From: an archaeon
GTDB taxonomy: Archaea > B1Sed10-29 > JAVZDC01
Direction of reading: 5' to 3'
DNA length: 64,000 bases
NCBI GenBank assembly: GCA_038874115.1
Contig: JAVZDC010000002.1
Span: 110,531-174,530 of the forward strand
Below are positions 21,668 through 55,308 of the stretch, one piece after another. Position 1 is the first letter of the stretch; each line of letters opens with the position of its first letter. Under the pieces are notes generated by a model. It had not been told where the DNA came from, ran no database searches, and worked only from the letters and a program-made list of their open reading frames with translations. Both the position numbers and the translations under genes were made by a program.

Positions 21668-21717
21668 ACGCCTCTTTATTTTAAACATGTTTAAAAAATA
21701 TATCTTTTTCGAAGAGT

Positions 21718-35802: not shown

Positions 35803-35866
35803 AAATATTAATAAATAGACGTATTTTAAATATTTGGAGGTGGATTTATTGCCATCTGATCGTGGC

Positions 35867-36301
35867 ATGTCTGCTTTGGATGCTTTAAATATGCAGGTTC
35901 AAACCTTAAATTCAAAGGTAGAAGTAGTAGCTCAAAGAATGAAAGTTATCGAGAAAAATGAACAGATAATTGGAAAAACTTTAATATCTCATAATAAAAC
36001 TTTGAAAGAATTGGAAGACGGGCTAGCTGCTTTAAAGGCAGAGAAGAAAGAAGAATTTCAGCAACAATTCGCTGCTGCTTTGGAAGAATTAAAAGAAAAG
36101 ATTGCTTCTTTTGAAGAAGATTTAAAAAGCTTAAAAAGTCAAGTCGAATATGCTCGTTTAGGAGTCGATGCTTTAAAATCTGATTTATCCAAATTGGAAT
36201 ATGCGTTAGAAGCCATAAACCCTGTTTTATACGTTACTATAGATCAAATTGGAGAATTAATAGAACAAAAGATCGAAGAAGCTTTATCTAAAAAGAAATA
36301 A
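35867..36301 (+). CDS. hypothetical coiled-coil protein
   Basis: ~145 aa of heptad-like Leu/Glu/Lys repeats. Start ambiguous (TTG 35849 after GGAGG, or ATG 35867). Confidence 0.55.
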   Translation: MSALDALNMQVQTLNSKVEVVAQRMKVIEKNEQIIGKTLISHNKTLKELEDGLAALKAEKKEEFQQQFAAALEELKEKIASFEEDLKSLKSQVEYARLGVDALKSDLSKLEYALEAINPVLYVTIDQIGELIEQKIEEALSKKK

Positions 36302-37750
36302 CTATTCACTCAAGAAAGGTCTAATCTTAAATCTGTATGGTTTTGAATTCTTTTCTTTTGCAGCCGCTTCGTTTTCAGTAATAAATTGTAAAATCATTGT
36401 TGAGTTTTGCATAATTTCTTGTGCTATATCGGATTCATGTGGAGTTCCGATGTGTACTCCAACTCCAACTTTTTGACAATCAAAAATACTTTTGAGAATT
36501 TCTTTCTCAATATTTTTTTGAATTTCCGGGGAGACTATCGGCTTTTCGATAAATACACTTGCTTTTAATGTATAGCTCTTGTCCACGACATAATAGAAAT
36601 AAAGTGTTTTTAAAAGGGATAAAAATACAAGTGGCAGCAATTCTTCCTGTTTTTCTAAAAATTCAACTCTGATCGCATTTCCTCCTGTTAAATATTTTGG
36701 TAAAATTTCAGAAATATTCATCTTTCCTTTGAAAATATCCGGGTATGCTTGCTCCAACGTAGACAATATCCTTAAAGCTTGGTAATATTGATTCTTAGTT
36801 GTAGCATCGAAAGCAAGATTAGTCTTTATATCCTCTATTGAACTTATCCCACCTTTTATCTTATTTAAAGCTTGATCAATCATTTCCCATGTCTTTTTCA
36901 CGCTTTCTGAATTCAATCCTAAAAATTCCTTCAAAGTTTCATTTGATATTAAGTTTAGGTCTACTCCAATTCTTTCAAGTGAAATGTTTTTTAAAGGCAA
37001 TCCAACAGGGCTTAAATCAGGGTAGTTCTCAAAATCAAACTTCGGGTTTGGTAGATTCATTGAAGCATAATCTTTTCCTTTATCGAAAAATATCGCCATT
37101 TTTCCACTTAATACGCAATTTTCGATTAAAACATGGAACATCTTTTTTATATCTTTTTGGCTTCCTATTACCACACAAAGCATAAATGAGTTTATCTCTT
37201 CCATGGCCTTTTCTCCAGTAATTTTTCTTCCAATTATCACCTTTGTTGGTTTAACTTCCTCAATTATCCTTTCTTTTTTGGAAACAAGAGCAAAGAATAG
37301 CGCAGGGTCCACAAACAATCTTTTAACCTCTTCTTCTTTTGCATATTTCAATTCCACTAAGTCGATTTTATAAAGTTTTGAAAGTCTGAGAAGATCTTTT
37401 GAAGAAGTTTCACATACATTTATCGATTTTTCTATCGCATCGTTTAATGCACTCATGTTGTATTCCACGTAAACAGGTCCAGAATTTATGATGAAGTATT
37501 TTGTTAAGCTTAAAGGTTCTTTTTTTTCAATTATTTGTGCGTAACCTACAATATTTTCTAAAGCACGAGCAAGAGAACCAACAGCTACGAATACCTTATT
37601 TACTTGCACCAATACTCCTTTAATTTCCTCCCCTTCTTTTTCATAAATACATATTAAAAGAATCCGGTCTGGGTTTTCGAAAATTTTAGTTTCGTATCCT
37701 TGCCAAAAACCTGAAAAGATTTCATTCCAAGGCCCATAAGCAGCTTCCAT
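36302..37750 (-). CDS. hypothetical protein (482 aa)
   Basis: Long uninterrupted ORF in AT-rich DNA; no Walker or other diagnostic motif found. Confidence 0.6.
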   Translation of the reverse strand: MEAAYGPWNEIFSGFWQGYETKIFENPDRILLICIYEKEGEEIKGVLVQVNKVFVAVGSLARALENIVGYAQIIEKKEPLSLTKYFIINSGPVYVEYNMSALNDAIEKSINVCETSSKDLLRLSKLYKIDLVELKYAKEEEVKRLFVDPALFFALVSKKERIIEEVKPTKVIIGRKITGEKAMEEINSFMLCVVIGSQKDIKKMFHVLIENCVLSGKMAIFFDKGKDYASMNLPNPKFDFENYPDLSPVGLPLKNISLERIGVDLNLISNETLKEFLGLNSESVKKTWEMIDQALNKIKGGISSIEDIKTNLAFDATTKNQYYQALRILSTLEQAYPDIFKGKMNISEILPKYLTGGNAIRVEFLEKQEELLPLVFLSLLKTLYFYYVVDKSYTLKASVFIEKPIVSPEIQKNIEKEILKSIFDCQKVGVGVHIGTPHESDIAQEIMQNSTMILQFITENEAAAKEKNSKPYRFKIRPFLSE

Positions 37751-37798: not shown

Positions 37799-38386
37799 AT
37801 GCCTACCATGGATCCAAAAATGCAGGAAATTATCGACATTCTAAAAAACATGCTTCAGACTGGAGCATCGGATGAAGAAATATCGAATATTCTCCAATCT
37901 GCCGGGATTCCAAAAGAAGATGCAGACTTTTTAATATCTGAGGCAAAAAAATCTTTAGAATCAGAAAAAGCTGCTGCAAAAGCTGCTGAAGAAAAAGCTC
38001 CAACACAGGAAGCACCAACTCCACCTCCTGCGGCTGAAGAGGTAGAGGAAGGAGCAGAAGCTGAGGAAACCGAGGTTGAAGAAGCACCTGAAGGTCTTGG
38101 CGAGATTTTAGAAGAACAACAAAGCATTTTAGAAGAAATATTGTCTAAATTGGACGAACAGAATAAAGATATTTCCGAGTTAAAAACAATGATTACTGAG
38201 ATTAAAGAAAAACAAGCATTTTTAGAACAAAAGATAGAAGAAATAAGTATTCCAGCAGGAGATATACTTCAACTAAAAGAATTTGTTCTTCAGATGAAAC
38301 CTATGATTTCAAACGTAAAGGAATTAAATGAAAAACTTTTAGATATAAACCGAGAAGTATTGATGTGGTTAAAGAGTAAAAAATAA
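37799..38386 (+). CDS. hypothetical acidic coiled-coil protein
   Basis: 195 aa; Pro/Ala/Glu-rich acidic linker (APTQEAPTPPPAAEEVEEGAEAEETEVEEAPE) followed by a coiled-coil segment. Confidence 0.6.
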   Translation: MPTMDPKMQEIIDILKNMLQTGASDEEISNILQSAGIPKEDADFLISEAKKSLESEKAAAKAAEEKAPTQEAPTPPPAAEEVEEGAEAEETEVEEAPEGLGEILEEQQSILEEILSKLDEQNKDISELKTMITEIKEKQAFLEQKIEEISIPAGDILQLKEFVLQMKPMISNVKELNEKLLDINREVLMWLKSKK

Positions 38387-38387
38387 C

Positions 38388-38612
38388 TTATTTCTGAAAT
38401 ATTTTCATAATTTGAGTTAGAATGCTTTTGCTTTTCTTTCCTTTTTTAAAAAGTTTTAAAAACGGAGGTAGTATAGCTTCAATTTCTTTAGATTTACCTT
38501 TCTTATCTTCTTTACTTATGCTTTCAAATAAAATCCCTTCTGCTTCTCCTGGAATTGGAATTTCTTCTTTTGGTGGCTCAGAATAAATTATGATATGTTT
38601 CTTTTTTCCCAT
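38388..38612 (-). CDS. small protein with cationic amphipathic C-terminus (paralogue family member, no TM)
   Basis: 74 aa; HIIIYSEPPKEEIPIP core and tail ILPPFLKLFKKGKKSKSILTQIMKIFQK; related to the three upstream paralogues. Confidence 0.5.
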   Translation of the reverse strand: MGKKKHIIIYSEPPKEEIPIPGEAEGILFESISKEDKKGKSKEIEAILPPFLKLFKKGKKSKSILTQIMKIFQK

Positions 38613-38618
38613 GAAAAC

Positions 38619-38945
38619 TCACTTAAATAAGCTTTTAAATACTTTTCCAAAAGACTTTGATGCTTTAACCCACCAAGGCGGTTCTGCCTCTTCTTCAGGT
38701 TTGTATTTTAAACTTATTTTTTCAGGCATTACGTATGGCGCGGTTCTTTTGCTTTTAATGTAGATGGGATTTAACATTTCTTGTTTTGATTCTTTTTCTT
38801 CTTTTTTCTTAGAAATTAGACTAAATAACAATAAGATTATACTTAGTCCAAAAAGTAGATAAGATAATAACAAGTATTTTGCAATATACAAAAATAATGC
38901 AATTGTCATTAAAATTAATGCGTGATCAGCGTCCATATCAATCAA
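38619..38945 (-). CDS. small membrane protein, paralogue family with cationic amphipathic C-terminal tail
   Basis: 108 aa; two N-terminal TM helices, Lys/Glu linker, NPIYIKSKRTAPYVMPEK core, tail SKSFGKVFKSLFK. Confidence 0.6.
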   Translation of the reverse strand: MIDMDADHALILMTIALFLYIAKYLLLSYLLFGLSIILLLFSLISKKKEEKESKQEMLNPIYIKSKRTAPYVMPEKISLKYKPEEEAEPPWWVKASKSFGKVFKSLFK

Positions 38946-39279
38946 ATATTTTTTTAAAGAGTTTTATTATCGAACCACTCACTTTACCTAAAGACTCACC
39001 AGCCAACATGAAGGTTGAGCCGTGCTTTGGCCATTTTGTAATAATCTCTATCTTTCCTTTTTTCGGGTATAAATACGGAGGCTCTCCTATGTCTTCATAT
39101 ATCACTGGATGTAAAATCGTCTCCTCATCCTCTTTCTCCTTTTTTTCTGTTTTTTTATATTGTTTTTTAGGCCAAACTGCTATCAAAACGCTTAAAAATA
39201 ATAAAAATGCTGCGATGTAAACTTGTAACCAAAAAGCTATTATGAGCGCAACTATGAGTAATAAAAGAATTCTATCCAT
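38938..39279 (-). CDS. small membrane protein, paralogue family with cationic amphipathic C-terminal tail
   Basis: 113 aa; two TM helices, HPVIYEDIGEPPYLYPKK core, tail LGKVSGSIIKLFKKIFD. Confidence 0.6.
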   Translation of the reverse strand: MDRILLLLIVALIIAFWLQVYIAAFLLFLSVLIAVWPKKQYKKTEKKEKEDEETILHPVIYEDIGEPPYLYPKKGKIEIITKWPKHGSTFMLAGESLGKVSGSIIKLFKKIFD

Positions 39280-39321
39280 ACCTAAATTTTATTTTTTAAA
39301 GCTTAATAATCTTTCGCGAGT

Positions 39322-39636
39322 TCATTTAAACAGGCTTTTTAATATTTTTCCTAAATTCTTTCCAAGTTTATCAGCTTTAAGGGATAAGCCAGTAGGCCCA
39401 GGTTTTCCAACCTCAATCTCCAATTTTTCAGGATATATGCTTTTCGGCCCAACGTATTCTCTTTGTACAATTATTGGCTGAACTTTCACTTTTTCTGTAT
39501 GTTTTTTACTTTTGGATTGTTTTTTAAATTCTAAGAAAGCTACCCCAACTATCATAAGTATTACGGATAACCAAACTTGCTTTAGAAAAAAAGAGATGAT
39601 AGCACCAACGAAAGCAACAATACTAATTTTATTCAT
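39322..39636 (-). CDS. small membrane protein, paralogue family with cationic amphipathic C-terminal tail
   Basis: 104 aa; two TM helices, QPIIVQREYVGPKSIYPEK core, tail LGKNLGKILKSLFK. Confidence 0.6.
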   Translation of the reverse strand: MNKISIVAFVGAIISFFLKQVWLSVILMIVGVAFLEFKKQSKSKKHTEKVKVQPIIVQREYVGPKSIYPEKLEIEVGKPGPTGLSLKADKLGKNLGKILKSLFK

Positions 39637-39944
39637 CTATAGCCCCCAAGCATTCTTAATAATTCGTCATATCCTCCTTCTTCTGTTTGTTTTATTCCTT
39701 TTCTTTGAGCAAGTATGTAGATTATAGCTACTGCGATGATTATCGGAATAAACCAATTTTCTTTTAAATTGAGGAAATAAATGCTTGCTAAAGCTAACCA
39801 ACAAACCAAAGATATTGCAAAGCTTCTACTTATCAAAAGAATGAACAATGCACATGCGAACCCAAATACAGTTAGTTTAGCATTGATCAATATCGCAGAA
39901 AGCAATAATAAGATCAAGGTAGAATATAAATCAATCTCTGCCAT
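39633..39944 (-). CDS. hypothetical small polytopic membrane protein
   Basis: 103 aa, 3 TM helices; tightly packed with flanking genes on the same strand. Confidence 0.5.
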   Translation of the reverse strand: MAEIDLYSTLILLLLSAILINAKLTVFGFACALFILLISRSFAISLVCWLALASIYFLNLKENWFIPIIIAVAIIYILAQRKGIKQTEEGGYDELLRMLGGYR

Positions 39945-39964
39945 TTAAATCTTTCCCCCGCTTT

Positions 39965-40249
39965 TTATTTTTTTTCTTCTTTTTTCTCCGCTTTTTCACT
40001 CAAAGTTTCAGCCATTCCTTCTAAAAAGGCATAGCCGAAGAATAGTATTATTATCCAAATTATTAGCTCTGGATGCAGGTAAAACGTAAAATAACTTATT
40101 ATCGCAGCAAGGATTATTCCAATTTTTTTCGATCCAATAAAGTCCGATGCCCATTTGTATACGAATAAAAATAAAATAATTGTGAATACTATTCTTAAAT
40201 CATTCCAAATGTTACCCGCAACCCCAAACACAATTTCTTGCATCATCAT
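39965..40249 (-). CDS. hypothetical small membrane protein
   Basis: 94 aa, 2-3 TM helices, Lys/Glu-rich C-terminus. Confidence 0.5.
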   Translation of the reverse strand: MMMQEIVFGVAGNIWNDLRIVFTIILFLFVYKWASDFIGSKKIGIILAAIISYFTFYLHPELIIWIIILFFGYAFLEGMAETLSEKAEKKEEKK

Positions 40250-40280
40250 ACTTAATCCTTTCCATAATATATAAATTTTT

Positions 40281-40604
40281 TCAATATCTTTGTAGCATAA
40301 ACATTATTATTCCAGAAAAGCCCATCATAACGAGTAAATAAAAGGTGTAGGCTGGGACAAAAAGAAAATACAATTTTATTACAAAGATGTATATCAATAT
40401 TCCGCTAACGATATATGTTAAAATCCCTGGGCCCAAGAAATTCTTAACGAATGAATAAATTACAAATATGAAATATGCTATCATTAACCACTTAAATATT
40501 GGGAAAAGCTCTCCAAGAAGAAGAGGAAAGAGCATGATTGCTAAGAAAACAAGTAACAAGATAATCATGAACGGAGTGAAAAATAAAAATCCTTTTGTTT
40601 TCAA
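40281..40604 (-). CDS. hypothetical small polytopic membrane protein
   Basis: 107 aa, ~4 TM helices. Confidence 0.5.
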   Translation of the reverse strand: MKTKGFLFFTPFMIILLLVFLAIMLFPLLLGELFPIFKWLMIAYFIFVIYSFVKNFLGPGILTYIVSGILIYIFVIKLYFLFVPAYTFYLLVMMGFSGIIMFMLQRY

Positions 40605-40610
40605 AATTGT

Positions 40611-40973
40611 TCACCTCATCCTAGCCCTAGCTCTCATCATCGTATCTTCTGTTTCGATTCCCTCCATAGAAGGTTCTTTTCTCCAAGGTTTAACTATGGA
40701 TAGGTCGAATAAAACTTGTGTGAATCCAAATATAATGAATAAGTAAATGAACATCATCGGACCAAATATCTCAAAATGCTGGAATAGGAAGATATAAGCT
40801 AAAACCAAAGTAATGATTATTGTAACTGGCCCTCCACCAAACCTGTTTTTTACAAAACCAACAATAAACAGTAAAACCACGATTTTAAAAGCAAGAATAA
40901 GAAGGTCAAAATCAGATAAAACGTTCCCAAAAAGCTTTCCAATCAAAAATCCTTGAATATCTGGGAACCCCAT
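40611..40973 (-). CDS. hypothetical small membrane protein
   Basis: 120 aa, 3 TM helices, Arg-rich C-terminus (MMRARARMR); start 2 nt after the stop of the giant upstream gene. Confidence 0.5.
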   Translation of the reverse strand: MGFPDIQGFLIGKLFGNVLSDFDLLILAFKIVVLLFIVGFVKNRFGGGPVTIIITLVLAYIFLFQHFEIFGPMMFIYLFIIFGFTQVLFDLSIVKPWRKEPSMEGIETEDTMMRARARMR

Positions 40974-40974
40974 T

Positions 40975-43900
40975 TTAATCCTTGAAGTTACTTATTAAAG
41001 TTTCCAATTCTCCTGAATCTTTTGCGAATATCTTGTATCCTTGTGAATCAGACCAAATTATTCCGCTTTTAGGAATGTCTGCTGTACTGCCCCACTTATT
41101 TTTAAATATTGTTTGCGCATTTTGTTCGCACGTAGAGATACTTGTACAAATTGCCACAAATACACTTTTTATGTTGTCTGGGGGCGTAGTTCCAGATTTC
41201 CATAAGAAATTAACTTCTGCAGGAGATACTTTTTCAATCTTCGCAATTAAATTTATTATATTATTGTTAAGTTTCTCCTTTACATCTCGCGAGCATTCTC
41301 CGTTTCCTTGAACGCAGATTCCTTGAATTGTTGAGGATGTTAATGTAAGATAATTCTCCCCTATAGAGTCTTCATCAATGTATTTTAAAGATAGTGTTCC
41401 TCTAAGAGTTTTTTCTAAATTACTTATTAATTCCTCTAATTCCCCTTTATTTTTTCCAATGATGTATGTGTTCCATCCTTTTCTAAATATTATGTTAGCT
41501 TCGTACCTTCCAAGTTTATCAGATACTAGATGACATGGAGCTTTCTTATCTTCTCCTTCATTGATTATAGCTGATTCGTTGCATATCTTCACTATGATAG
41601 TAGGACCCAACTCGATTTCATTTTTTTGAGTTATTTCTTTTAAAGTTACATCCGTGTTCCATTGTGCTTTTAAAGCTTTTCCTAACTTCTGCAAAATACC
41701 GTCCTTTTCCGAGCCCCCTATTCCTTCAAAGTACACATGTACATAGATTGCTGGTGTTGTCGAAGAACTTAACGATTCGTTAAGTACAGGCCAAAATGCT
41801 TGTACTCCTCTCACATCATTTTCATTTTCATCCACAATTTCCAATCCTGAAAGTCTTCCTGTAGAATCAAACGAATTTATTTCAACGCAGGAATCAGTTA
41901 TTTTATTTATTTTAAGCTGATATTCCCCTGCCCCTTCAATTCTAGCCCCATTGTTTATTAATACACATTTTTCTTTTCCAGAGGTACAATAACCGCATGA
42001 GCTCTGAGATGCCATTTCACTTATTATCACAAACTCCGCTTTAGAATATATTTCTGTAAATATTCTTTGAATATCTTGCGGTGTCGCGCCTTTTAAAGCC
42101 ACAGATTTGAAAGTCACTGGATTTGGACTTGAGAAATTGTCCGTTTTCTCTATAATAAATGCTAAAATTTGATCAAGAGAGCAAAAGTTTGTTTCACAGT
42201 CAAGAGGAAGACCATACTTCTGAATCTTTAAAGGTTTAAAGTATCCTTCAGAAATTTCTTCAACACTCGGAGCTTTTGCCATTATCGTAAGTCGAATCGT
42301 GTATGCGGAGCTTATTTTTTTATTTGACTTAAACTCCTTTGACGCGTTAATAGTAATGTTTATGTTATTTATTTCAGACGCGCCAGCTTCCAATGTTTTC
42401 CCAAAACTATATTTTATCTCCGCTCCTTGTGTGTATTGAGAAAATGAAGAAATATATCCACTTGGGGATGCTCCTCCAGTCCCTTCGACTACCACTTTGG
42501 TAATGTCCACTTCTACATCCGGGTCGCATTTTTTGAGAGTTAGAGATACGGGATTAGATTCGGTACAATTATTGTCACGTGGTGCTTCAAAGCTTGCTTC
42601 TTTTGTCATAACTTTAGATACTGAGATCAAACAAGAATGAGTTTCCCTTGTTGAAACGTCTAGATTGATTGATTTGGTTGTTGGAATTTCTAGACAAGGA
42701 CTTGCTACTTTTTTTATCTGGCCTTCCTTTAAATTATCTCCTGAAAGATTTATTTCTATTTTTGTTCCTGGGTATGCTCGTACTTGGTCATCAAAATAAA
42801 TCTCTATCCGATCTCTCTTATATTTGTAATTATTCGAATATTCTGAACTTTTAATTTGAATCGTTCTTCCATCCATTGTAATTTTTCCTTCTACATGGTA
42901 TTGTTTTGGATTTATAGGGGTATTCAAACCCTCTTTATATACTTTTATCGAAAAGTTAGTAGTTAAATCAGTTATTTTTTCAGGTTCTATTTCAATTCTT
43001 ATCGAAGCTTGTGCAGAATAGTTTATTTTGGTCTCAGCTACTTTGTTATTGTCGACAAAAGAATGAATTATCACTTGCGGAGGTATTTTAGCCTCTGCTT
43101 CAATCTTTACAATTATTTTTTCCCCAGTTCTCCAATCTTTTAAACTTAATTTAACATCTGTTTCATTCGCTTCGTATTCCGATTCATCAATAGTCGTAAG
43201 AGTATTGTTAAATTCTCTTAATACCATCGTGGTTAAAAATTCAGTAGTAATTCCAGATAAAGTATTGCTTGTAATACTTATCTCAGATGAACTTCTGGTT
43301 GAACCCTCGTTTATAAATGAAATTGTTAAGTTGTACTTAGGTTCATTTTCTTTAATCTCTACAGCGTTTGGAGAATAGGAGTTACCTTTATAGTTCACTT
43401 CTGCTTTAACCATTATTGTTTTGTCCTCCAAACCTGGCTCCAAATTGCTTTCTCGTGAGATATAAAAGAATATCTTTTTCGTCCCCTTTTTCGGATCGCT
43501 AACTTTCGCGTCTCCTTTATACCAAGTAGCAGAGTATTCCAAAGTTACATTATCGTTGAAACAAGTTGTTTTTACTCTTATAGGTACACGCACCTCTAAA
43601 GTAGTATTTCTATATTCATCTGGGTATCCGGATATTACATACGTTACGCCAGACACCTCTGTCGATTGTGTGAAATCAGTCGGCTCGACTCTTCCAAATT
43701 CTAAACATCCACTACGTTCCTTTATAGAAAATTCTGCTTTATCTACAGGTTCATTATTTAAATCTGGGAGGGAAACTAAGAAATGTAAAACATATTGTTC
43801 TCCTACTGAAAGACTTTCTTCAACATTCCCATTGGTTGCTCTATCAAAATAGACTGTAAAGTTTACGAATGCAAGCTTCAAATCTATTGAAACATCTTTA

Positions 43901-45684
43901 GTTAACATACCTACGTCAATAATCCCTCCATATATTTTTCCTGTTGAAGTATTTCTCCAAGTTCCTTTTACTATTATGTTCGAGTATTCTGGAACTTCAA
44001 ATTCTACGTACCCATCGATCGATGTTTTACCGCTTGTAAGTTGAACGAGTTCTTGTTCTTCCCCAACTCTTTTATCAAAAAGTACTACTTCTGCATTCGA
44101 AAGTACTTCTTCGCTCTCTTTTTCTAAAACAGTTATTCCTATGGTATATTTTTTCCTTTCAATTTCTATAACTTTCCTAACAAGGGACCCTCCTTTCACT
44201 GTAACTTGGACGCAACTACTTGAATCATTAAACCTTATTGCTTTTACACAATATTCTCCGATAGGCACACCATTAAACATAACTTTTCCATCCACCCCTG
44301 TTTTTTCAGGTATGGAAGGAATTCCAAGTAATTGAGACTCATCTTTTGAAAATAATTTTACTTCAGCATCCTTTACAGGTATTTCAGTTCCTTTAAAAAT
44401 TACAGTTACCTTTATGTCTCCATACTCTCCAGAAGTAAGTTCCGTCAAATATATTTTTTTACTTTCGCCCCCAACTATTTCGAATTCAGTATAATTGTAT
44501 CCTTGTAAAAATACGCTAGCTCGGTAAGTTTCTCTCTTTTTTAATGCAATCTTTGCGACACCAGTTTCATCAGATTCTGCCTTACTAATTATATCGTTTC
44601 CTTTGAATACTGTAATATATGCTCCTCCAACCGGAACTTCCCCACTTTGAGTTTGCTTAAAAGTATAGATGTAAGTTGGAGATGTTGTATTTACTTGAAT
44701 TAAAATCTCTAAAGTTCCGCCAGTTATGTTAGCAACCCAAGTTTTGTTTTCATCAATGTAACTGTCATAATTTGTATTATTTTCCCCTGCTTCAACTTTT
44801 ACTGAGAAGTTAGCATTCTTTGGAACTTTGAGGTTTGCAATTCCCAAATAACCTTGAGAATACCCTGTTGTCTCTGAAGAATAAGTGTAGTTAGTTAATG
44901 GATTTACAAGTTTTACCGTGACTCCAGCCAAAGGATTATTATTTTCATCAACAACTTTTACTTTGACTTTCACATATTCTTCTTTTATTTCTTTCCGATC
45001 TAGTTTGATGCAAACTCCAGAATCTATTTTATTTTTTATGTACTCTCCAGGCAGTAAATCAGTCTCATAGTTCAAAGTTTCAAATTTATAAGAATAATTT
45101 ATTACAAAATTACTCATTACACAAGTAGCATTTTCCTCACAAGAAAGAACGTCTTTTTCTTTAACCACTCTTTCTCCATCATAGGCGGAGTATTTAATTG
45201 AACTTATGCTTAATTCTGAAAAATCTGCTGTTTCAAAGCAAAGTTGTACTGATGTTCTTGAAAGCTCGCCTTGGCATTTTAAATATATTGGAATCTGGTA
45301 CGTATCTGATTCTACAGTTATCGTAGATTCGTAATTTAAACATCCTGTTTTTTCCACCTGAATAGAATATTCACCAGGTTCTGCTGAGAGTTCAACGATC
45401 CCATCAACAGTTTCTCCACTATATACTGTTTTCCCATTCAAATCCTTTAAAGTTATTGATGCGCCAGATATTCCTATTTTTGTAATGTTGTCTTTTACAA
45501 ATATGGAAAATTGTATTTCTTTTGGGGTAGGTGCTCCTCCTCCCCCTCCAGCCAGCATTAAATAAATTCCAACAAGTATTGCAACGAATATTCCAGCAAA
45601 AACAGGTAAAGAAGGTATTCCCTTTTTTTCCAAAGGATCTATAATTGAATAGATTGGAACACCTTTCGAATCTAAAAAATCCAA
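40975..45684 (-). CDS. giant (1569 aa) surface adhesin-like protein with prepilin-like N-terminal anchor and Ig-like/prealbumin-like beta-sandwich repeats
   Basis: N-terminus EKKGIPSLPVFAGIFVAILVGIYLML (basic, KG, hydrophobic helix) then Gly5 linker; many beta-rich repeats (e.g. VKVKVVDENNNPLAGVTVKLVNPLTNYTY); last long gene of the pilus-like operon. Confidence 0.8.
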   Translation of the reverse strand: MDFLDSKGVPIYSIIDPLEKKGIPSLPVFAGIFVAILVGIYLMLAGGGGGAPTPKEIQFSIFVKDNITKIGISGASITLKDLNGKTVYSGETVDGIVELSAEPGEYSIQVEKTGCLNYESTITVESDTYQIPIYLKCQGELSRTSVQLCFETADFSELSISSIKYSAYDGERVVKEKDVLSCEENATCVMSNFVINYSYKFETLNYETDLLPGEYIKNKIDSGVCIKLDRKEIKEEYVKVKVKVVDENNNPLAGVTVKLVNPLTNYTYSSETTGYSQGYLGIANLKVPKNANFSVKVEAGENNTNYDSYIDENKTWVANITGGTLEILIQVNTTSPTYIYTFKQTQSGEVPVGGAYITVFKGNDIISKAESDETGVAKIALKKRETYRASVFLQGYNYTEFEIVGGESKKIYLTELTSGEYGDIKVTVIFKGTEIPVKDAEVKLFSKDESQLLGIPSIPEKTGVDGKVMFNGVPIGEYCVKAIRFNDSSSCVQVTVKGGSLVRKVIEIERKKYTIGITVLEKESEEVLSNAEVVLFDKRVGEEQELVQLTSGKTSIDGYVEFEVPEYSNIIVKGTWRNTSTGKIYGGIIDVGMLTKDVSIDLKLAFVNFTVYFDRATNGNVEESLSVGEQYVLHFLVSLPDLNNEPVDKAEFSIKERSGCLEFGRVEPTDFTQSTEVSGVTYVISGYPDEYRNTTLEVRVPIRVKTTCFNDNVTLEYSATWYKGDAKVSDPKKGTKKIFFYISRESNLEPGLEDKTIMVKAEVNYKGNSYSPNAVEIKENEPKYNLTISFINEGSTRSSSEISITSNTLSGITTEFLTTMVLREFNNTLTTIDESEYEANETDVKLSLKDWRTGEKIIVKIEAEAKIPPQVIIHSFVDNNKVAETKINYSAQASIRIEIEPEKITDLTTNFSIKVYKEGLNTPINPKQYHVEGKITMDGRTIQIKSSEYSNNYKYKRDRIEIYFDDQVRAYPGTKIEINLSGDNLKEGQIKKVASPCLEIPTTKSINLDVSTRETHSCLISVSKVMTKEASFEAPRDNNCTESNPVSLTLKKCDPDVEVDITKVVVEGTGGASPSGYISSFSQYTQGAEIKYSFGKTLEAGASEINNINITINASKEFKSNKKISSAYTIRLTIMAKAPSVEEISEGYFKPLKIQKYGLPLDCETNFCSLDQILAFIIEKTDNFSSPNPVTFKSVALKGATPQDIQRIFTEIYSKAEFVIISEMASQSSCGYCTSGKEKCVLINNGARIEGAGEYQLKINKITDSCVEINSFDSTGRLSGLEIVDENENDVRGVQAFWPVLNESLSSSTTPAIYVHVYFEGIGGSEKDGILQKLGKALKAQWNTDVTLKEITQKNEIELGPTIIVKICNESAIINEGEDKKAPCHLVSDKLGRYEANIIFRKGWNTYIIGKNKGELEELISNLEKTLRGTLSLKYIDEDSIGENYLTLTSSTIQGICVQGNGECSRDVKEKLNNNIINLIAKIEKVSPAEVNFLWKSGTTPPDNIKSVFVAICTSISTCEQNAQTIFKNKWGSTADIPKSGIIWSDSQGYKIFAKDSGELETLISNFKD

Positions 45685-45797
45685 GAGATCAAACCATTTG
45701 TCCTCTATCGAATAATAAATTTCTTTTAAATTCGTAAGACCACCTTTATCATGTTCTATTTTCTAATGCCACCATAGTATATAAAATTTTTTCTTTT

Positions 45798-46601
45798 TTA
45801 GCAACTTGATGGTGTAATCGATATCGTGGTTGTTATGTATTCAATTGTTTGGTCTGGATTGGAATAACGGAATATTATTTTAGTTAATCCTTCTATTCCT
45901 TGGGAAATTCCAACTATTTCAACTCTTGATGCTTCGGCCTCTGCTTTCATTTGTCCGCAACTACCATCATTTTTAGCTGCAATGTATGATTTCTCCAATC
46001 TCTTACAAAGAGGAGCACTAGAAACCCAAGTTCTGCTTTCCGGCCCAATAAAGATCGTTAATTTATCTTTCTCATTATTTTTATTTTTAAAAGTAACTTT
46101 AAAAATGTCTTTCCCTTTAAATTTACTTCCATCTATTTCTATTTTAACCTTTCCTTCCGAGTCACAACTTAGTGTTATAGGTTTAATTTCACCTAAAGTC
46201 TTTGAAAGTTGGTCATAAAAATTAGCCGGATATTCTGGAGAATATTCTGTCGCACTTTCAACGCTAGACCCCATACCTTGATAGATTCCGTTTCCCCCTA
46301 AGGTTAAATCATTTTCTAACTTTCTTATAATCATGTATTTTAAATTCTCCGAGCTGCCATACTTGGAAAGGTCGAGCGTAAAATTAGAAGCTATCGCATT
46401 TTCAATTTGAGCGTAAATGTGGCTTTCAACAGTTGCTTTTATCATCTTTGCAGAATTACTTTGAAAAGAGTTTTCTTGGAAATTAATTAGACTTTTTGAT
46501 ACTCTTACATTATTCTCCACGACTACTACTGCTGTAAAACTTGCTATCAAAACCAGCAAGGTTCCAATCAAGGCACTAAAAAGAGAAAAACCTCTTCTCA
46601 T
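45798..46601 (-). CDS. prepilin-like protein (class III signal peptide), 267 aa
   Basis: N-terminus MRRGFSLFSALIGTLLVLIASFTAVVVV (basic, RG, hydrophobic helix), as in archaeal type IV pilin precursors. Confidence 0.6.
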   Translation of the reverse strand: MRRGFSLFSALIGTLLVLIASFTAVVVVENNVRVSKSLINFQENSFQSNSAKMIKATVESHIYAQIENAIASNFTLDLSKYGSSENLKYMIIRKLENDLTLGGNGIYQGMGSSVESATEYSPEYPANFYDQLSKTLGEIKPITLSCDSEGKVKIEIDGSKFKGKDIFKVTFKNKNNEKDKLTIFIGPESRTWVSSAPLCKRLEKSYIAAKNDGSCGQMKAEAEASRVEIVGISQGIEGLTKIIFRYSNPDQTIEYITTTISITPSSC

Positions 46602-46752: not shown

Positions 46753-47175
46753 CTAACATCCCTGTGGTAAAGTAGGTGTACCGCCTATGCCTACGACACA
46801 TTTATTAGTTCCACAAACAGCATAGACATCCACAGGTACATTTTTCTGCGGGGAGAATGTATTCTCATCGCAGTTTGCAATATTATTATTGATATTACTC
46901 GCGCATTCGAATTCTATATCTTTTCCCGCAGCTTCAACAAACTTTGAGGATCTAGCTGAATACGAGGTTCCAGTTTTTAATTTTACTGGAGTTGAACTTT
47001 TTTGAATATTGCAAGGTGAATTTGCTGCAGACTGAAGCAATGCTGCTACGGTTGTATCGAACTCTTGGCCAGGTACTGTTATTCCTCCAAGAATACTTAA
47101 TAAAATCGCTAAAATCATTACCGCAACTACCGCAGCAATCATAAGTTGGAACGTATCGAATGCTTGTCCTTTCAC
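46753..47175 (-). CDS. archaeal type IV pilin-like protein (class III signal peptide)
   Basis: N-terminus MKGQAFDTFQLMIAAVVAVMILAILLSILGG: KGQ motif then hydrophobic helix, matching the archaeal prepilin signal; Cys-containing C-terminal domain. Confidence 0.7.
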   Translation of the reverse strand: MKGQAFDTFQLMIAAVVAVMILAILLSILGGITVPGQEFDTTVAALLQSAANSPCNIQKSSTPVKLKTGTSYSARSSKFVEAAGKDIEFECASNINNNIANCDENTFSPQKNVPVDVYAVCGTNKCVVGIGGTPTLPQGC

Positions 47176-47190
47176 GCATTCACCTCCAAT

Positions 47191-47403
47191 TCACCATTTA
47201 TAATACGGACATATCTTACATTCTTCAGGTACTTGTTCAACAGTCCAAGGTTTTCCTATTAATTCTTTAACTTGCGGTGGGCAATCAGGGAAAGAACCAT
47301 AACAATTTGGAAACTTTTTTGCTTTTTTTATTTCTTCATAAATTTTTTCTCCTTCTTTTTTTCTTTTTATGATCGGTGTCCTTCTTCTTTTACCTCCACC
47401 CAT
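47191..47403 (-). CDS. hypothetical small basic Cys4 protein (70 aa)
   Basis: Highly basic N-terminus (GGGKRRRTPIIKRKK), four Cys (C-x5-C…C-x2-C); sits between two pilin genes. Confidence 0.45.
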   Translation of the reverse strand: MGGGKRRRTPIIKRKKEGEKIYEEIKKAKKFPNCYGSFPDCPPQVKELIGKPWTVEQVPEECKICPYYKW

Positions 47404-47443
47404 AACTTCACTACGTGTTTTTTATATAAAAATCTTTCTTTTT

Positions 47444-47842
47444 TTAAGAACAACTATCTGAGCAAAGATATATTGTACATCCTTGTTGTGAGTCGCACTT
47501 TGTAGATATTGGAATTTTCATATTGTATTTTGCAGTACAAAGGAATCCTTCACAATCTACTTTATTTCCGCACCTGTTCCTAATTCCTATAGATGTATCT
47601 GGGAAAAAATGTTGTATGCTTTTAGATGATATTGTTTCTCCTTTTTTTAGTTCAAAATCCCGAGATATGCATTGGGATGCTACTCTTACAGAATAAGCTT
47701 CCCCAACAATCTCTTTTAATAATGCTCCTGTTTCAAAAGGTTTTGGAGTAGAACTTATATATGCAAAGATTATTGCTGCTAAAGCGATAGCAAAAATTCC
47801 AGCAAGCATCATTTCAAAAATCGTAAAAGCTTGTCCTTTCAT
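47444..47842 (-). CDS. archaeal type IV pilin-like protein (class III signal peptide)
   Basis: N-terminus MKGQAFTIFEMMLAGIFAIALAAIIFAYI; paralogue of 46753..47175; overlaps the platform gene stop by 4 nt. Confidence 0.7.
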   Translation of the reverse strand: MKGQAFTIFEMMLAGIFAIALAAIIFAYISSTPKPFETGALLKEIVGEAYSVRVASQCISRDFELKKGETISSKSIQHFFPDTSIGIRNRCGNKVDCEGFLCTAKYNMKIPISTKCDSQQGCTIYLCSDSCS

Positions 47843-49881
47843 GCGATCCCTGTAATTAATAAAGAACTAAAGTACGTTGCGGCAAGGAAAAGAATGACAG
47901 ATATTGGTAAAGTCTTTGCAATGTTTATCTTTAAAGCAAGGTCGTTTTCCCCTTCCTCTATTTTACTTGTAAAATAGGTTAAAAGCAAAGTAATTTCAAC
48001 AACATAGATTCCAAGTAAAATTATGAAGAATTCAACACTTGGTAACTGCGAGACTTCAAACTTTCCAATACTAAAGAATCCAGGAATGTTTTTCATTTTG
48101 ATTCCAGTTTGTTGAGCAGACAAACCAGAAAGAGATTGAATTATTAATTTCTGCATGCTTCCAGTGATTCCAAGTACTAAAGGAGCAATTAGAAAAGCAA
48201 TCGATTTCATCATGGCAGTTATTTCTTCCAACATGTTTTTTATTTTTGTTTGTAATTTTCTCAAATCTTTTATTTGTAAAGAAAGAGATATAAGAGCTTT
48301 TGCTGCTTGTTGAACTCCTAAACTAGCAGCATCTAAAACAATCCTAAAACTGTTTTTTATAAAGTCTGAGTATACTTCTCTTAAAGATCCGTATGCAGGG
48401 TCAAAAAAAGCACTCTGAACAGTCATTCCCAAGTTTCTTATGTTTTCACTAGTTTTTGCAAAAACTTTTGCAATTTTTGTGTGTTTTAAAAAGTTAGCTG
48501 AATATTCCATCGCTTCTTCCAAAGGTCTATTTTCCCCAAGTCTTGAAGCAACAACATAGATCCCATCTTCAAATTCTCCTTCCATTGTCATTATTTCTAA
48601 CTGCAGTTTTCTTCTTTCGATAGAAATTCCGTAAAGATAGATTGAAACAAAAGCACTAAAACTTAAGAATACCCCTGCAATCCAACCAAAATGAACGTAT
48701 CCAGTCAAATCAGCATGAGTTTGTGAGTATTGCATAGCAAGGAATGGTTCCAAAATAAAGAAACAACAAAAGAAAATAGTAAATGCAACAATGGATGCAA
48801 TAAAGACAGCAGGTACTTCAGACTTACCTATCCTCATGTAACCTTTTTTTGGAAGTTTGGGAAGATTTTCCGGAATTTTTGGTGGCACGTATACAGGAGG
48901 TCTCATACTTAAAATGTTTTTAGCAAAGATCATCGTTCCAAAAGGAATCGCAGCAACATAAAGCCCAGTTATAAGCAAAGGATTGCTTAAAAAAGGCAAG
49001 TTTCCAATCATCGCTCCTATCGGTAAAAGAATTATAAGCATTAAAGGCAGTAGGACTCCAACATAGTAAAGGTAGATCGTTGGTTGTCTCATCTTTGTTA
49101 TGTACCCGTTCATTTCTTCAGAAAGGCCAGCTAAAACATCTTCTAAAGCCTTATCTAAAATTGCATGTCTCTTTCCTTCGTCTATTTCTATTATCGAAGA
49201 TCTTATTAACATCAAGGCATGTTTAAACTGTTCACTATAGTTTCCCCATTTATACGCTAAAGCATCTAACGCTTCCTCCATAGATCTATATATTCCAAAT
49301 TTTACATCCCAACTTAATTTCTTTAAATCTTCTGCAATCTTTCCCCTTCCATGCATTCCTGCAAACTCAACTGCCTTTTCCAAGTTTGGCGTTAGTTTCA
49401 TCGAAATTATAAGATAATTTACTATCTCGGGTATACTTAGCAAAGCTTCTATCTTTTGAGCTTTTGCTGCGTTTATTATATATCGGTTATAATAGTTTGC
49501 AAGAATGAAAGGAATTAATATTAAAACTGGAGCACACATCGTAAAAATAAACATGTCTAGCTCTTGGGTAATAAAAACCATGTATCCAAGAAAACCCAGG
49601 ATTGGCAAAACAAGTATTAAAGAGATTTGTGTTACAAAGATAGGAACAGCATTTACTTCCGCAGGAGTTAAAGGCCAACCTAAAAACTCTAGAGCAGAAG
49701 CAAATTCTTTATTTTTAAACTCATTTTTTGCTTTTACGTATTTTGCAGCCATTTTTGCCAATCTTATGTAAGAATTTTCTTTGATTTGTACTTTTGGTTT
49801 TTCTATAAGCTCTTTTGAAAATGCTTCTGCAAAACCTCCAAGCGTATTTTCTTCTTCAAACCTTCTTCTTCGCTCTCTCAA
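47839..49881 (-). CDS. type IV pilus / secretion membrane platform protein (FlaJ/TadC-like, two T2SS-F-type domains)
   Basis: 680 aa polytopic membrane protein with two cytoplasmic helical domains each followed by TM helices; immediately downstream of and overlapping the secretion ATPase gene. Confidence 0.7.
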   Translation of the reverse strand: MRERRRRFEEENTLGGFAEAFSKELIEKPKVQIKENSYIRLAKMAAKYVKAKNEFKNKEFASALEFLGWPLTPAEVNAVPIFVTQISLILVLPILGFLGYMVFITQELDMFIFTMCAPVLILIPFILANYYNRYIINAAKAQKIEALLSIPEIVNYLIISMKLTPNLEKAVEFAGMHGRGKIAEDLKKLSWDVKFGIYRSMEEALDALAYKWGNYSEQFKHALMLIRSSIIEIDEGKRHAILDKALEDVLAGLSEEMNGYITKMRQPTIYLYYVGVLLPLMLIILLPIGAMIGNLPFLSNPLLITGLYVAAIPFGTMIFAKNILSMRPPVYVPPKIPENLPKLPKKGYMRIGKSEVPAVFIASIVAFTIFFCCFFILEPFLAMQYSQTHADLTGYVHFGWIAGVFLSFSAFVSIYLYGISIERRKLQLEIMTMEGEFEDGIYVVASRLGENRPLEEAMEYSANFLKHTKIAKVFAKTSENIRNLGMTVQSAFFDPAYGSLREVYSDFIKNSFRIVLDAASLGVQQAAKALISLSLQIKDLRKLQTKIKNMLEEITAMMKSIAFLIAPLVLGITGSMQKLIIQSLSGLSAQQTGIKMKNIPGFFSIGKFEVSQLPSVEFFIILLGIYVVEITLLLTYFTSKIEEGENDLALKINIAKTLPISVILFLAATYFSSLLITGIA

Positions 49882-52144: not shown

Positions 52145-52657
52145 TTTAACATTCCTCGTTCCGAATTCGTGAAAGCGACTTTTTTTACTTTTAAAATCTT
52201 GCTATTTTTTTCTATTTTTATAACTCTACTCTCTTTTATAAATCTTTATCCTCTTAAAGTCTTTGTGGCTAAAGGCGTCTCTTTTTTATTAACTCTTTTT
52301 GGTGTACCGCATGTTTTAATCTTCTCAAGCCCAGAGCCAAGCATTTTTGTAGATAATGTCGAAGCCCAAATAAAGGACTTATGTGTTGGACATATGGAAA
52401 TTGCGTTGATTTGTTCGATAATCTTAGCTTGTGATGATCGTTCTGTTAAATCTCGAGTTCTTGGTGCCTTTTGTTCTATTCCTTTTGTTTTTTTCTTAAA
52501 TCCTTTAAGAATCTCGGTCGTTTTGTTTTTTGGGCATTATTTCTCCTGGCCTTTTGCAGACTTTATTCATGATGTTCTTTTCAGGCTCACTCTTTTTATT
52601 GTAATTCTTATTTACTTTCTGATTTGGTATGTTTTATCCTGGAAGTTTAAGTTATAA
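52133..52657 (+). CDS. possible small polytopic membrane protein with Cys-Ser / Asn-x-x-Arg motifs (exosortase/archaeosortase-like?), or non-coding
   Basis: 174-aa ORF in the 550-bp divergent intergenic region; TM helices, EIALICSIILAC and FLNPLRISV. May be spurious (AT-rich DNA gives hydrophobic ORFs) or may start internally. Confidence 0.3.
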   Translation: MRSHFNIPRSEFVKATFFTFKILLFFSIFITLLSFINLYPLKVFVAKGVSFLLTLFGVPHVLIFSSPEPSIFVDNVEAQIKDLCVGHMEIALICSIILACDDRSVKSRVLGAFCSIPFVFFLNPLRISVVLFFGHYFSWPFADFIHDVLFRLTLFIVILIYFLIWYVLSWKFKL

Positions 52658-53833: not shown

Positions 53834-53864
53834 TCTTTAAATTCTTATTTTCCCTTGTTTATTC

Positions 53865-54407: not shown

Positions 54408-54408
54408 T

Positions 54409-55304: not shown

Positions 55305-55308
55305 ATGA

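What the first reader, a model, noticed from the sequence alone, without database searches (positions are those of the whole stretch)
39633..40973. Four further small polytopic membrane proteins completing an eight-gene array downstream of the adhesin
Between the giant adhesin gene and the paralogue family lie four unrelated small (94-120 aa) multi-TM proteins, separated by only 2-30 nt, all on the minus strand. Eight consecutive small membrane proteins following a pilus/adhesin operon is unusual and suggests a membrane complex (channel, holin-like or anchoring module) co-expressed with the pilus.
Basis: seen in the sequence. Interest (0 to 1): 0.55.

Follow-up and report, generated by a model that had tools for sequence, protein, structure and literature searches.

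The report
Conserved DPANN small membrane-protein cassette
The four small membrane-protein genes are real, strongly conserved genes with no known relatives; they form the constant core of a gene cassette that sits behind a giant cell-surface protein in tiny symbiotic archaea (Micrarchaeota and relatives), probably as a membrane base for that surface structure, though their function is untested.

Summary
Four minus-strand ORFs (120, 107, 94 and 103 aa) lie 1-31 nt apart. Each has 3-4 hydrophobic helices and a coding signal like that of neighbouring genes. The window is core chromosome of a Micrarchaeota-type DPANN archaeon.

Orthologues of all eight small genes occur in the same order in about 20 related loci at roughly 25-55% identity, with dN/dS of 0.05-0.4. 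Genes 1-4 are the constant core. The downstream paralogue family varies from one to five or more copies. More distant lineages, including MAGs labelled Diapherotrites, keep g1-g2 or g1-g4.

They are not "unrelated": g1 and g2 (and more weakly g3) are paralogues, and g4 tentatively shares a hydrophobic hairpin with g5-g8.

None matches Pfam, NCBIfam, PHROGs or PDB sequences.

The most constant partner is the giant Ig-repeat protein, which has a conserved N-terminal cytoplasmic motif plus a membrane anchor. In relatives the pilus ATPase/platform operon is divergently transcribed. An archaeosortase-like gene, a HerA-like protein with a degenerate Walker A and two coiled-coil proteins are also syntenic.

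Best reading, at moderate confidence: a hetero-oligomeric membrane base or anchor for the giant surface protein. A holin role is rejected.

The parts
40611..40973 (-). g1 (120 aa). Three TM helices plus a cytoplasmic charged tail. Hallmark residues are K30 in TM1, the loop [KR]x[HR]xG and G83/D90 at the end of TM3. Founding member of a family of about 75 clusters (at 50% identity).
40281..40604 (-). g2 (107 aa, TTG start). Four TM helices and a probable paralogue of g1. Its N-terminus is a conserved [KR]-[G/A/S] followed by about 20 hydrophobic residues, resembling a class III (prepilin-type) signal.
39965..40249 (-). g3 (94 aa; 76-86 aa in relatives). Three TM helices with the same architecture as g1: a G-S-K-K cytoplasmic loop and a short H-x-E outer loop. 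A TATA-like TTTATATA lies about 15-25 nt upstream of its ATG.
39633..39944 (-). g4 (103 aa). Two hydrophobic helical hairpins and a conserved cytoplasmic C-terminal motif Y-S-P-E-L-M-x-L-L-G-G (YDELLRMLGG in the window).
38388..39636 (-). g5-g8 paralogue family: 39322-39636 (104 aa), 38938-39279 (113 aa), 38619-38945 (108 aa) and 38388-38612 (74 aa). Each has one hydrophobic hairpin, a K-rich linker, a conserved P-I-I-V...P-x-Y-x-x-P cytoplasmic motif and an amphipathic C-terminal helix. g8 has lost its hairpin in this genome.
40975..45762 (-). Giant Ig-repeat surface protein (1569 aa from the listed TTG at 45684). The open frame and the conserved N-terminal cytoplasmic motif IYYSIEDKWFDLLDFLDSKGVPIYSIIDPLEKKGIPSLPVF extend upstream to at most 45762, followed by one TM anchor.
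45798..46601 (-). 267-aa protein with a class III signal (MRRG|FSLF...) and a C-terminal Cys. Conserved next to the giant gene in relatives: immediately upstream in all but L007, where it lies just downstream.
36302..37750 (-). X482, a HerA-like P-loop-fold protein with a degenerate Walker A (VVIGSQKDIKK). Conserved downstream of the array in most Micrarchaeota-type loci.
37799..38386 (+). 195-aa coiled-coil protein, convergent with the array and conserved in position.
35834..36301 (+). 155-aa coiled-coil protein, conserved in position between X482 and PolB.
46753..52144 (-). Type IV filament core: ATPase (49856-52144), platform protein (47839-49881), two MKGQAF-type pilins (47444-47842 and 46753-47175) and a 70-aa Cys-rich protein (47191-47403). 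It lies in tandem with the array only in this lineage.
52133..52657 (+). 174-aa exosortase/archaeosortase-family protein with Cys, Arg and His signature residues present. In relatives it is the first gene of the operon p174 - 267-aa protein - giant - g1..g8.

Best explanation
g1-g4 are the invariant core of a lineage-specific cassette found in Micrarchaeota and in related MAGs labelled Diapherotrites. The cassette encodes small helical-hairpin membrane proteins from two paralogous sets: g1/g2/g3, and g4 with g5-g8. I propose that they assemble, one copy type per position, into a hetero-oligomeric complex in the cytoplasmic membrane. This complex would serve as the base or anchor of the giant N-terminally anchored Ig-repeat surface protein encoded immediately upstream. 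Nearly all of their non-membrane mass is cytoplasmic: the tails of g1, g3 and g4 and the roughly 70-aa domains of g5-g8. So the complex would couple the giant protein's conserved cytoplasmic N-terminal motif and TM anchor to cytoplasmic partners. Candidate partners are the HerA-like X482 and the two coiled-coil proteins. The neighbouring type IV filament machinery is a likely collaborator. Shown: the genes are real, conserved, collinear, under purifying selection, polytopic and without known homologues, and they are syntenic with the giant protein. Inferred: that they form one complex, their topology, and the anchoring role.
For: Real genes: correct-frame codon signal and dN/dS 0.05-0.4. Collinearity: g1 to g8 in the same order in every locus long enough, at about 25-55% identity with position-specific orthology. 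g1-g4 are also kept in order in divergent lineages L023, L025, L027 and L028, and g1-g2 in L022 and L029. Tight spacing or overlaps with the giant gene and with each other imply one transcript. A giant protein (1569-2410 aa) lies upstream of g1 in all Micrarchaeota-type loci with upstream sequence and in Diapherotrites-labelled L022 and L027. It is immediately upstream in all but L007, where the 267-aa-type gene intervenes. These giants share an N-terminal motif YYxxEDKW...PVYxxVDP...IPSxxxF followed by a TM, which implies a conserved cytoplasmic binding partner. The positive-inside charge distribution places the tails of g1, g3, g4 and g5-g8 in the cytoplasm (alignments). Paralogous sets with distinct, individually conserved members are typical of fixed-position subunits. 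Invariant intramembrane or interfacial K30 and D90 in g1 across 76 sequences suggest specific helix-helix or ion contacts. X482 and the coiled-coil genes are syntenic in most loci. The window is core chromosome, not a mobile element.
Against: There is no direct evidence of physical interaction, expression or localisation. Two distant loci have the array without a giant gene immediately upstream: L028 has a 782-aa secreted protein and L029 has an 828-aa protein plus Fic. The whole block, including PolB and an M24 peptidase, is syntenic, so some of the linkage could be inherited gene order rather than shared function. The X482 linkage is lost in L011/L021, L022 and L029. The g1 structure model is low confidence (pLDDT 64) and the X482 model failed (pLDDT 35). 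The g4-g5 relationship is only tentative, because one reversed-profile control reached E 5e-5.
Confidence: 0.4

Rival explanations
1. The small proteins are accessory (alignment, stator or base) components of the adjacent type IV filament machine. They would be functional analogues of PilN/PilO or GspL/GspM, or of the 'membrane-inserted accessory proteins' of archaeal TFF subsystems, with the giant protein as a pilus-associated adhesin.
For: A T2SSE-type ATPase and a T2SSF-like platform lie within about 10 kb in every locus with enough upstream sequence. g2 has a conserved [KR]-[G/A/S]-hydrophobic N-terminus like a class III signal. The 267-aa neighbour is a clear class III signal protein. The giant's KKG|IPSLPVF could in principle be a prepilin-type site. 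Archaeal TFF loci with membrane accessory proteins and Ig-rich adhesins are described (doi 10.64898/2026.04.22.720090).
Against: In relatives the ATPase/platform operon is on the opposite strand, in a separate transcription unit. Loci L022, L028 and L029 show the array with no TFF gene among the called genes of the stretch fetched. No g protein matches any known TFF accessory family. In the Diapherotrites-type giants the G at -1 is replaced by I or V, so cleavage there is not conserved.
Confidence: 0.2
2. The array is a housekeeping membrane complex unrelated to the adhesin. It might be an ion-conducting or small-solute complex, or a membrane tether for the HerA-like/coiled-coil proteins in division or chromosome handling, and it simply sits in an ancient conserved gene neighbourhood next to PolB.
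For: The order g-array, coiled-coil, X482, coiled-coil, PolB, M24 is conserved even in divergent lineages. The flanks are core genes. g1 has invariant charged residues in or at the edge of TM helices. L028 and L029 lack a giant gene directly upstream.
Against: The 1-nt spacing to the giant gene and the near-universal upstream giant genes argue for co-function. There is no similarity to any transporter, antiporter small-subunit, SMR, CrcB, MscL or c-ring family. In L003 the PolB block is inverted while X482 stays with the array. X482's Walker A is degenerate in all orthologues.
Confidence: 0.2
3. The hairpin proteins are subunits of a conduit or lipid-containing tube for cell-to-cell transfer, analogous to the Ced/Ted (T4SS-derived) systems. 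In those systems small 2-TM proteins long taken for membrane proteins turned out to be pilins. Here the HerA-like protein would be the cytoplasmic ring.
For: Small helical-hairpin proteins sit next to a HerA/VirB4-superfamily protein and type IV pili, as in Ups/Ced. Ced and Ted components share no recognisable sequence similarity, so lack of sequence hits is not decisive (PMC9905601). DPANN cells form nanotube or bridge connections with their hosts (PMC11329633). A trace match to TrbC/VirB2 occurs in 2 of 12 g1 members, but at E 0.89, which is noise level.
Against: There is no VirB6/CedA-like 6-7-TM protein in the locus. X482 has no TM segment and a degenerate Walker A in all orthologues. g1 and g5-g8 carry long charged cytoplasmic tails unlike VirB2-type pilins. 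There are no PDB sequence or fold matches.
Confidence: 0.07
4. The ORFs are chance open frames or decaying pseudogenes in AT-rich DNA.
For: The proteins are small and hydrophobic in a 33% G+C genome. One gene caller skipped g2 in L001.
Against: Orthologues occur in about 20 loci, dN/dS is well below 1, the codon signal is in the correct frame, and g1 has 75 clusters in a 1.8-billion-protein library.
Confidence: 0.01

Closest known systems
Lineage-specific membrane accessory proteins of archaeal type IV filament (TFF) loci, e.g. subsystems 4C/4G of Makarova et al. 2016 as re-surveyed in doi 10.64898/2026.04.22.720090
   Same: Small membrane-inserted proteins encoded beside an ATPase, platform protein, pilins and large Ig-rich adhesin-like proteins. 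Their function is likewise unknown.
   Different: No sequence relationship was detected to any curated family. Here the array is tied to the giant protein's operon and is usually divergent from the ATPase operon. It consists of two paralogous sets of hairpin proteins in a fixed order. Its lineage distribution (Micrarchaeota and Diapherotrites-labelled MAGs) is different.
Ced/Ted DNA-import systems (CedA1/CedA2/TedC small 2-TM proteins with VirB4/HerA-like ATPase; PMC9905601)
   Same: Small helical-hairpin proteins, a HerA/VirB4-superfamily protein and type IV pili occur in one functional neighbourhood. The components are too divergent for sequence recognition.
   Different: No VirB6/CedA-like polytopic channel. 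The HerA-like protein lacks TM segments and has a degenerate Walker A. The g proteins have 3-4 hydrophobic helices and/or long cytoplasmic tails. A giant adhesin is the constant partner.
Bacterial T4P/T2SS inner-membrane alignment proteins (PilN/PilO, GspL/GspM)
   Same: Sets of small paralogous membrane proteins encoded in a row that link a surface filament to cytoplasmic components.
   Different: PilN/O and GspM are bitopic with periplasmic ferredoxin-like domains. The g proteins are polytopic or hairpin proteins whose soluble parts are cytoplasmic. No homology was detected.
Archaeosortase/exosortase-linked surface-protein systems (Pfam PF09721 / NCBIfam TIGR04178 exosortase/archaeosortase family)
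   Same: An exosortase/archaeosortase-family gene heads the operon in relatives, and large surface proteins are encoded nearby.
   Different: Neither the 1569-aa giant nor any g protein has a C-terminal motif-TM-basic sorting signal. The likely substrates in the window are two other large proteins (55801-60126 and 17879-21727).

Membership tests
Archaeal type IV pilins / class III signal-peptide proteins | Short N-terminal leader ending in [KR]-[G/A/S], followed by about 20 hydrophobic residues | tested here: inconclusive
   g1, g3 and g4 have no such N-terminus. In g2 the motif is conserved in 13 of 13 aligned orthologues (-2 K/R; -1 G in 11, A in 1, S in 1) and in L028 and L029. It is absent from the L027 sequence as called. 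Cleavage is untested.
Archaeal type IV pilins / class III signal-peptide proteins | A single N-terminal helix followed by a globular extracellular domain | tested here: not met
   All four proteins have 3-4 hydrophobic helices and no extracellular domain. Their soluble parts are short cytoplasmic tails.
Holins | Encoded in a phage or prophage lysis cassette next to an endolysin, with similarity to viral protein families | tested here: not met
   No significant PHROG match for any of the eight; g4 has one weak match (E 0.002) to a PHROG of unknown function. No relatives in 2.9 million viral contigs. The flanks are core genes (RNA polymerase, EF-2, PolB). No lysin gene was found.
Ced/Ted (T4SS-derived) transfer systems | VirB4/CedB-like ATPase with intact nucleotide-binding motifs | tested here: not met
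   X482 is only weakly HerA-like: 5 of 10 orthologues hit PF01935 (best E 1.4e-4), and a PDB HerA hit has E 1.7. Walker A is degenerate (GSxQDRK) in all orthologues.
Ced/Ted (T4SS-derived) transfer systems | VirB6/CedA-like channel protein with 6-7 TM helices | tested here: not met
   There is no such ORF between 33.5 and 52.7 kb other than the T2SSF-like platform protein.
Ced/Ted (T4SS-derived) transfer systems | VirB2/CedA1-like two-helix pilin | tested here: inconclusive
   Only noise-level TrbC/VirB2 matches (E 0.89, 2 of 12 g1 members). No PDB sequence or fold match. These pilins are known to be unrecognisable by sequence (PMC9905601).
Known small polytopic membrane families (Mrp small subunits, SMR, CrcB, MscL, ATPase c subunits, T2SSF, ArlF/G) | Match to the curated family profile above its cut-off | tested here: not met
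   No Pfam or NCBIfam match reaches its curated cut-off for any of the eight proteins or for members of the g1 and g2 alignments.
Archaeosortase substrates | C-terminal tripartite signal: signature motif, TM helix, basic cluster | tested here: not met
   The C-termini of g1-g8, the 267-aa protein and the 1569-aa giant lack it. By contrast the 1441-aa and 1282-aa proteins of the window have one.

The most novel reading that the evidence does not exclude
The g proteins, together with the HerA-like pseudo-ATPase and the coiled-coil proteins, could form the membrane core of the still unidentified DPANN host-contact apparatus. Candidates are the nanotube or cytoplasmic-bridge base, or a lipid-associated tube built from hairpin subunits as in Ced/Ted pili. 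The giant Ig-repeat protein would be its host-binding fibre. This would give the first genetic handle on how Micrarchaeota-type symbionts connect to their hosts.
Probability: 0.08. Interest if true: 0.9.

Novelty: new variant of a known kind. Interest (0 to 1): 0.5.

Why it matters
DPANN archaea live attached to host cells, but the genes that build their contact structures are essentially unknown. This cassette is lineage-restricted: g1 has only about 75 clusters among 1.8 billion representative proteins. It is strongly constrained and physically tied to giant surface proteins and type IV filament genes. It therefore offers a concrete set of candidates for proteomics, cryo-ET labelling and multimer modelling in cultured Micrarchaeota. 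It also defines at least two new small-membrane-protein superfamilies that gene callers sometimes miss.

Tried and rejected
Pfam, NCBIfam and PHROG scans of all eight proteins, and Pfam scans of the g1 and g2 family members, found nothing above cut-offs.

Profile searches of g1-g4 against PDB sequences returned only noise.

AlphaFold2 of g1 with 12 sequences gave pLDDT 64. It is usable only for helix boundaries, and the Foldseek search against PDB was meaningless, as expected.

The word-index homologue search found only one near-identical hit for g4 and two hits for X482 (one near-identical, one at 36% identity). Orthologues had to be recovered through synteny.

A viral-contig scan found no relatives.

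I considered and rejected these ideas: a holin role; the g proteins or the 1569-aa giant being the archaeosortase's substrates; the giant's N-terminus being merely a long class III leader, because the motif is conserved where the -1 Gly is not; Mrp-like or other known small-subunit complexes.

The literature searched contains no description of this cassette.
Full report
**1. What is in the sequence**

The window is archaeal, with about 33% G+C and intron-containing tRNAs. It carries core genes: RNA polymerase A'/B subunits, EF-2, CysRS, PPDK and family-B DNA polymerase.

The four ORFs of the finding lie on the minus strand at the stated coordinates. I call them g1-g4:

| Gene | Coordinates | Length |
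|---|---|---|
| g1 | 40611-40973 | 120 aa |
| g2 | 40281-40604 | 107 aa (TTG start) |
| g3 | 39965-40249 | 94 aa |
| g4 | 39633-39944 | 103 aa |

- g1 starts 1 nt after the stop of the 1569-aa gene.
- The next spacers are 6, 31 and 20 nt, and g4 overlaps the following gene by 4 nt.
- Four further small genes follow (g5-g8: 104, 113, 108 and 74 aa).
- The array ends 1 nt from a convergent coiled-coil gene.

**2. Are they genes?**

- A codon model trained on nine long genes of the window scores each of the eight ORFs positive in its own frame (+0.18 to +0.37 bits/codon) and negative in the other two frames. This is comparable to the neighbouring pilin genes.
- g1 has homologues at about 50% identity.
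- Fetching their contigs and scanning GTDB genomes and JGI metagenomes gave about 20 loci. In every locus long enough, orthologues of g1 to g8 occur in the same order and on the same strand.
- The only rearrangement is in L011/L021, where g6-g8 are inverted about 2 kb away.
- Orthology is position-specific: g1-g3 are about 40-55% identical, g4 about 29% and g5-g7 about 30-41%.
- Pairwise dN/dS is 0.05-0.29 for g1-g4 and 0.07-0.42 for g5-g8.

**3. Whose genes?**

- The five GTDB hits are three MAGs titled Candidatus Micrarchaeota, two MAGs titled only 'archaeon' among the wider set, and the near-identical MAG GCA_038873445.1 is also titled only 'archaeon'.
- A full HMMER search with the g1 profile against 1.84 billion representative proteins found only 75 clusters. 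All are 75-195 aa.
- The named members are 'archaeon' or 'Candidatus Diapherotrites archaeon' MAGs.
- No relatives were found in viral contigs.

**4. Anatomy**

The positive-inside charge distribution and the family alignments give these topologies:

- **g1:** N-out, three TM helices, a cytoplasmic loop KNRFGGGP and a charged cytoplasmic tail.
- **g2:** N-in, four TM helices. Its last three match g1's three, including the loop [KR][RN]xLGxG.
- **g3:** the same three-TM plan, with a GSKK loop and a short H-x-E outer loop.
- **g4:** two hydrophobic hairpins (8-38 and 42-79) and a cytoplasmic tail ending in the conserved YSPELMxLLGG.
- **g5-g7:** one hairpin, a Lys-rich linker, a conserved P-I-I-V...P-x-Y-x-x-P stretch and an amphipathic C-terminal helix.
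- **g8:** has lost its hairpin in this genome but keeps it in relatives.

AlphaFold2 of g1 agrees on the helices (6-45, 49-64, 71-94 and 104-119) but at pLDDT 64.

Across 76 g1-family sequences the near-invariant residues are K30 in TM1, F64, F70, G71, Y77, G83 and D90 at the cytoplasmic end of TM3.

Almost all non-membrane mass of the eight proteins is cytoplasmic.

**5. Relationships among the eight**

| Pair | Profile-profile result | Reversed-profile control |
|---|---|---|
| g1-g2 | 92% probability, E 5.5e-7 | E 0.06 |
| g1-g3 | E 1e-3 | E 0.17 |
| g5-g6-g7 | 98% probability | one control reached E 5e-5 |
| g4-g5 | 86% probability, E 5e-6 | E 0.011 |

- In divergent lineages, g1 members also hit the g2 HMM (down to E 4.6e-9), and g3 members hit the g1 and g2 HMMs at 1e-5 to 1e-7.
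- g1/g2/g3 are therefore probable paralogues.
- Because one reversed control reached E 5e-5, the g4 link to g5-g8 is only tentative.
- 'Four unrelated proteins' is incorrect.

**6. What stays next to them**

The usual order in relatives is:

- an exosortase/archaeosortase-family gene (p174);
- a 267-331-aa class III signal protein;
- the giant protein (1569-2410 aa);
- g1..g8;
- a coiled-coil gene on the opposite strand;
- X482 (about 490 aa);
- a second coiled-coil gene on the opposite strand;
- PolB and an M24 peptidase.

Further points:

- p174 matches TIGR04178 at 42 bits against a cut-off of 23, and PF09721 at 38.7 against 25.7. Its Cys, Arg and His signature residues are present.
- The type IV filament ATPase and platform genes lie divergently upstream of p174 in relatives.
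- In the window lineage an inversion of the block [pilins-platform-ATPase-p174] has placed the pilus genes in tandem with the array.
- g1-g4 are constant, while the hairpin paralogues number from one (L023, L027, L028) to five (L025).
- Two loci keep only g1-g2 (L022 and L029).
- Giant proteins lie upstream of g1 in all loci except L028 and L029; in L007 the 267-aa-type gene sits between the giant gene and g1.
- The giants share an N-terminal motif, YYxxEDKW...PVYxxVDP...IPSxxxF followed by a TM anchor, even in the Diapherotrites-labelled MAG L022.
- In the window this motif runs upstream of the listed TTG start, in a frame with no ATG, GTG or TTG.
- X482 is weakly HerA-like: 5 of 10 orthologues hit PF01935 (best E 1.4e-4), and a PDB HerA hit has E 1.7. 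Its Walker A is degenerate in all orthologues.

**7. Known families**

- None of the eight proteins reaches any Pfam, NCBIfam or PHROG threshold.
- None matches a PDB sequence.
- Foldseek on the weak g1 model returned nothing.
- g2 has a conserved [KR]-[G/A/S]-hydrophobic N-terminus resembling a class III signal. It is otherwise a four-helix membrane protein, not a pilin.
- The holin idea fails on context and on viral-family searches.
- The Ced/Ted analogy (PMC9905601) is attractive in outline. It fails on the VirB6-like channel and on the ATPase motifs.
- Archaeal TFF surveys describe 'membrane-inserted accessory proteins' and Ig-rich adhesins in some subsystems, but nothing matching this cassette.
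- The DPANN cell-biology papers I checked name no genes for contact structures.

**8. Interpretation**

- **Best supported (confidence about 0.4):** the array encodes a fixed-composition hetero-oligomeric membrane complex that works with the giant N-anchored surface protein. It would act as a base or anchor connecting that protein's conserved cytoplasmic N-terminus and TM helix to cytoplasmic partners, with the neighbouring type IV filament machinery as a probable collaborator.
- **TFF accessory or alignment complex:** 0.2.
- **Housekeeping membrane complex that merely shares an ancient neighbourhood with PolB:** 0.2.
- **Ced-like conduit or tube:** 0.07.

All functional statements are inference from synteny, topology and conservation. 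Nothing here demonstrates interaction.

**9. Verdict**

- The protein families are new to curated databases.
- The system is best filed as a new variant of lineage-specific membrane accessory modules of archaeal surface-structure loci.
- There is a small chance that it is the core of the DPANN host-contact apparatus.

Noticed in passing
window 55801-60126 (-) and 17879-21727 (-): Two other large surface proteins end in a motif-TM-basic tripartite signal. The 1441-aa protein (no Pfam hit) ends ...PEGIEFLPFLIAVILGILIIRKRF..., and the 1282-aa beta-helix/NosD protein ends ...PEDKLEFILTVLLTIFFLCLHNKK.... These PEF-CTERM-like tails make them, not the 1569-aa giant, the likely substrates of the archaeosortase-family gene at 52133-52657.
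   Followed up: partly
window 45685-45762 (-): The giant gene's conserved N-terminal motif (EIYYSIEDKWFDLL...) lies upstream of the first ATG, GTG or TTG in the frame. The real start must be a non-standard codon (perhaps ATH), or the annotated 1569-aa product is N-terminally short.
   Followed up: partly
window 52697-55824 (+): A divergent run of genes comprises a 378-aa protein followed by four small proteins with pilin-like N-termini (MKGQESAPIELLLG..., LRGISVWLF..., MKGYIGPLG..., MNKAQAALFDALFF...). The type IV filament locus is therefore larger than the ATPase/platform/two-pilin block.
   Followed up: no
window 46753-52657 compared with L003, L005, L020, L025: Relative to other lineages, the block [pilins-platform-ATPase-archaeosortase-like gene] appears inverted in this genome. 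This turns a divergent arrangement into a tandem one with the giant-protein operon.
   Followed up: partly
window 38388-38612 (-): g8 is 74 aa and lacks the N-terminal hydrophobic hairpin present in its orthologues (112-181 aa). There is no room upstream for it, so this lineage carries a truncated but conserved soluble version, identical in L001.
   Followed up: partly
window 36302-37750 (-): The conserved 482-aa protein has a HerA-like (DUF87) core but a degenerate Walker A in all orthologues, making it a likely pseudo-ATPase. It is flanked on both sides by opposite-strand coiled-coil genes.
   Followed up: partly
window 47191-47403 (-): A 70-aa basic, Cys-rich protein (CxxxxxC...CxxC, possibly a zinc ribbon) sits between the two pilin genes and is conserved in L001/L002.
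   Followed up: no
window 45798-46601 (-) and orthologues: The 267-331-aa class III signal protein next to the giant gene ends with a Cys within its last 1-6 residues in all orthologues examined. This hints at a conserved terminal disulfide or lipid/thioester linkage.
   Followed up: no
window 16593-16696 (-) and 22277-22368 (-): Two tRNA genes are probably intron-containing. One is found only by Rfam (104 nt). ARAGORN reports the other with a four-base anticodon.
   Followed up: no
L001 10370-10693: The g2 orthologue (TTG start) was not called as a gene on the Logan contig, although it is 100% conserved at the protein level. Small TTG-start membrane genes of this cassette are prone to being missed in annotation.
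   Followed up: no
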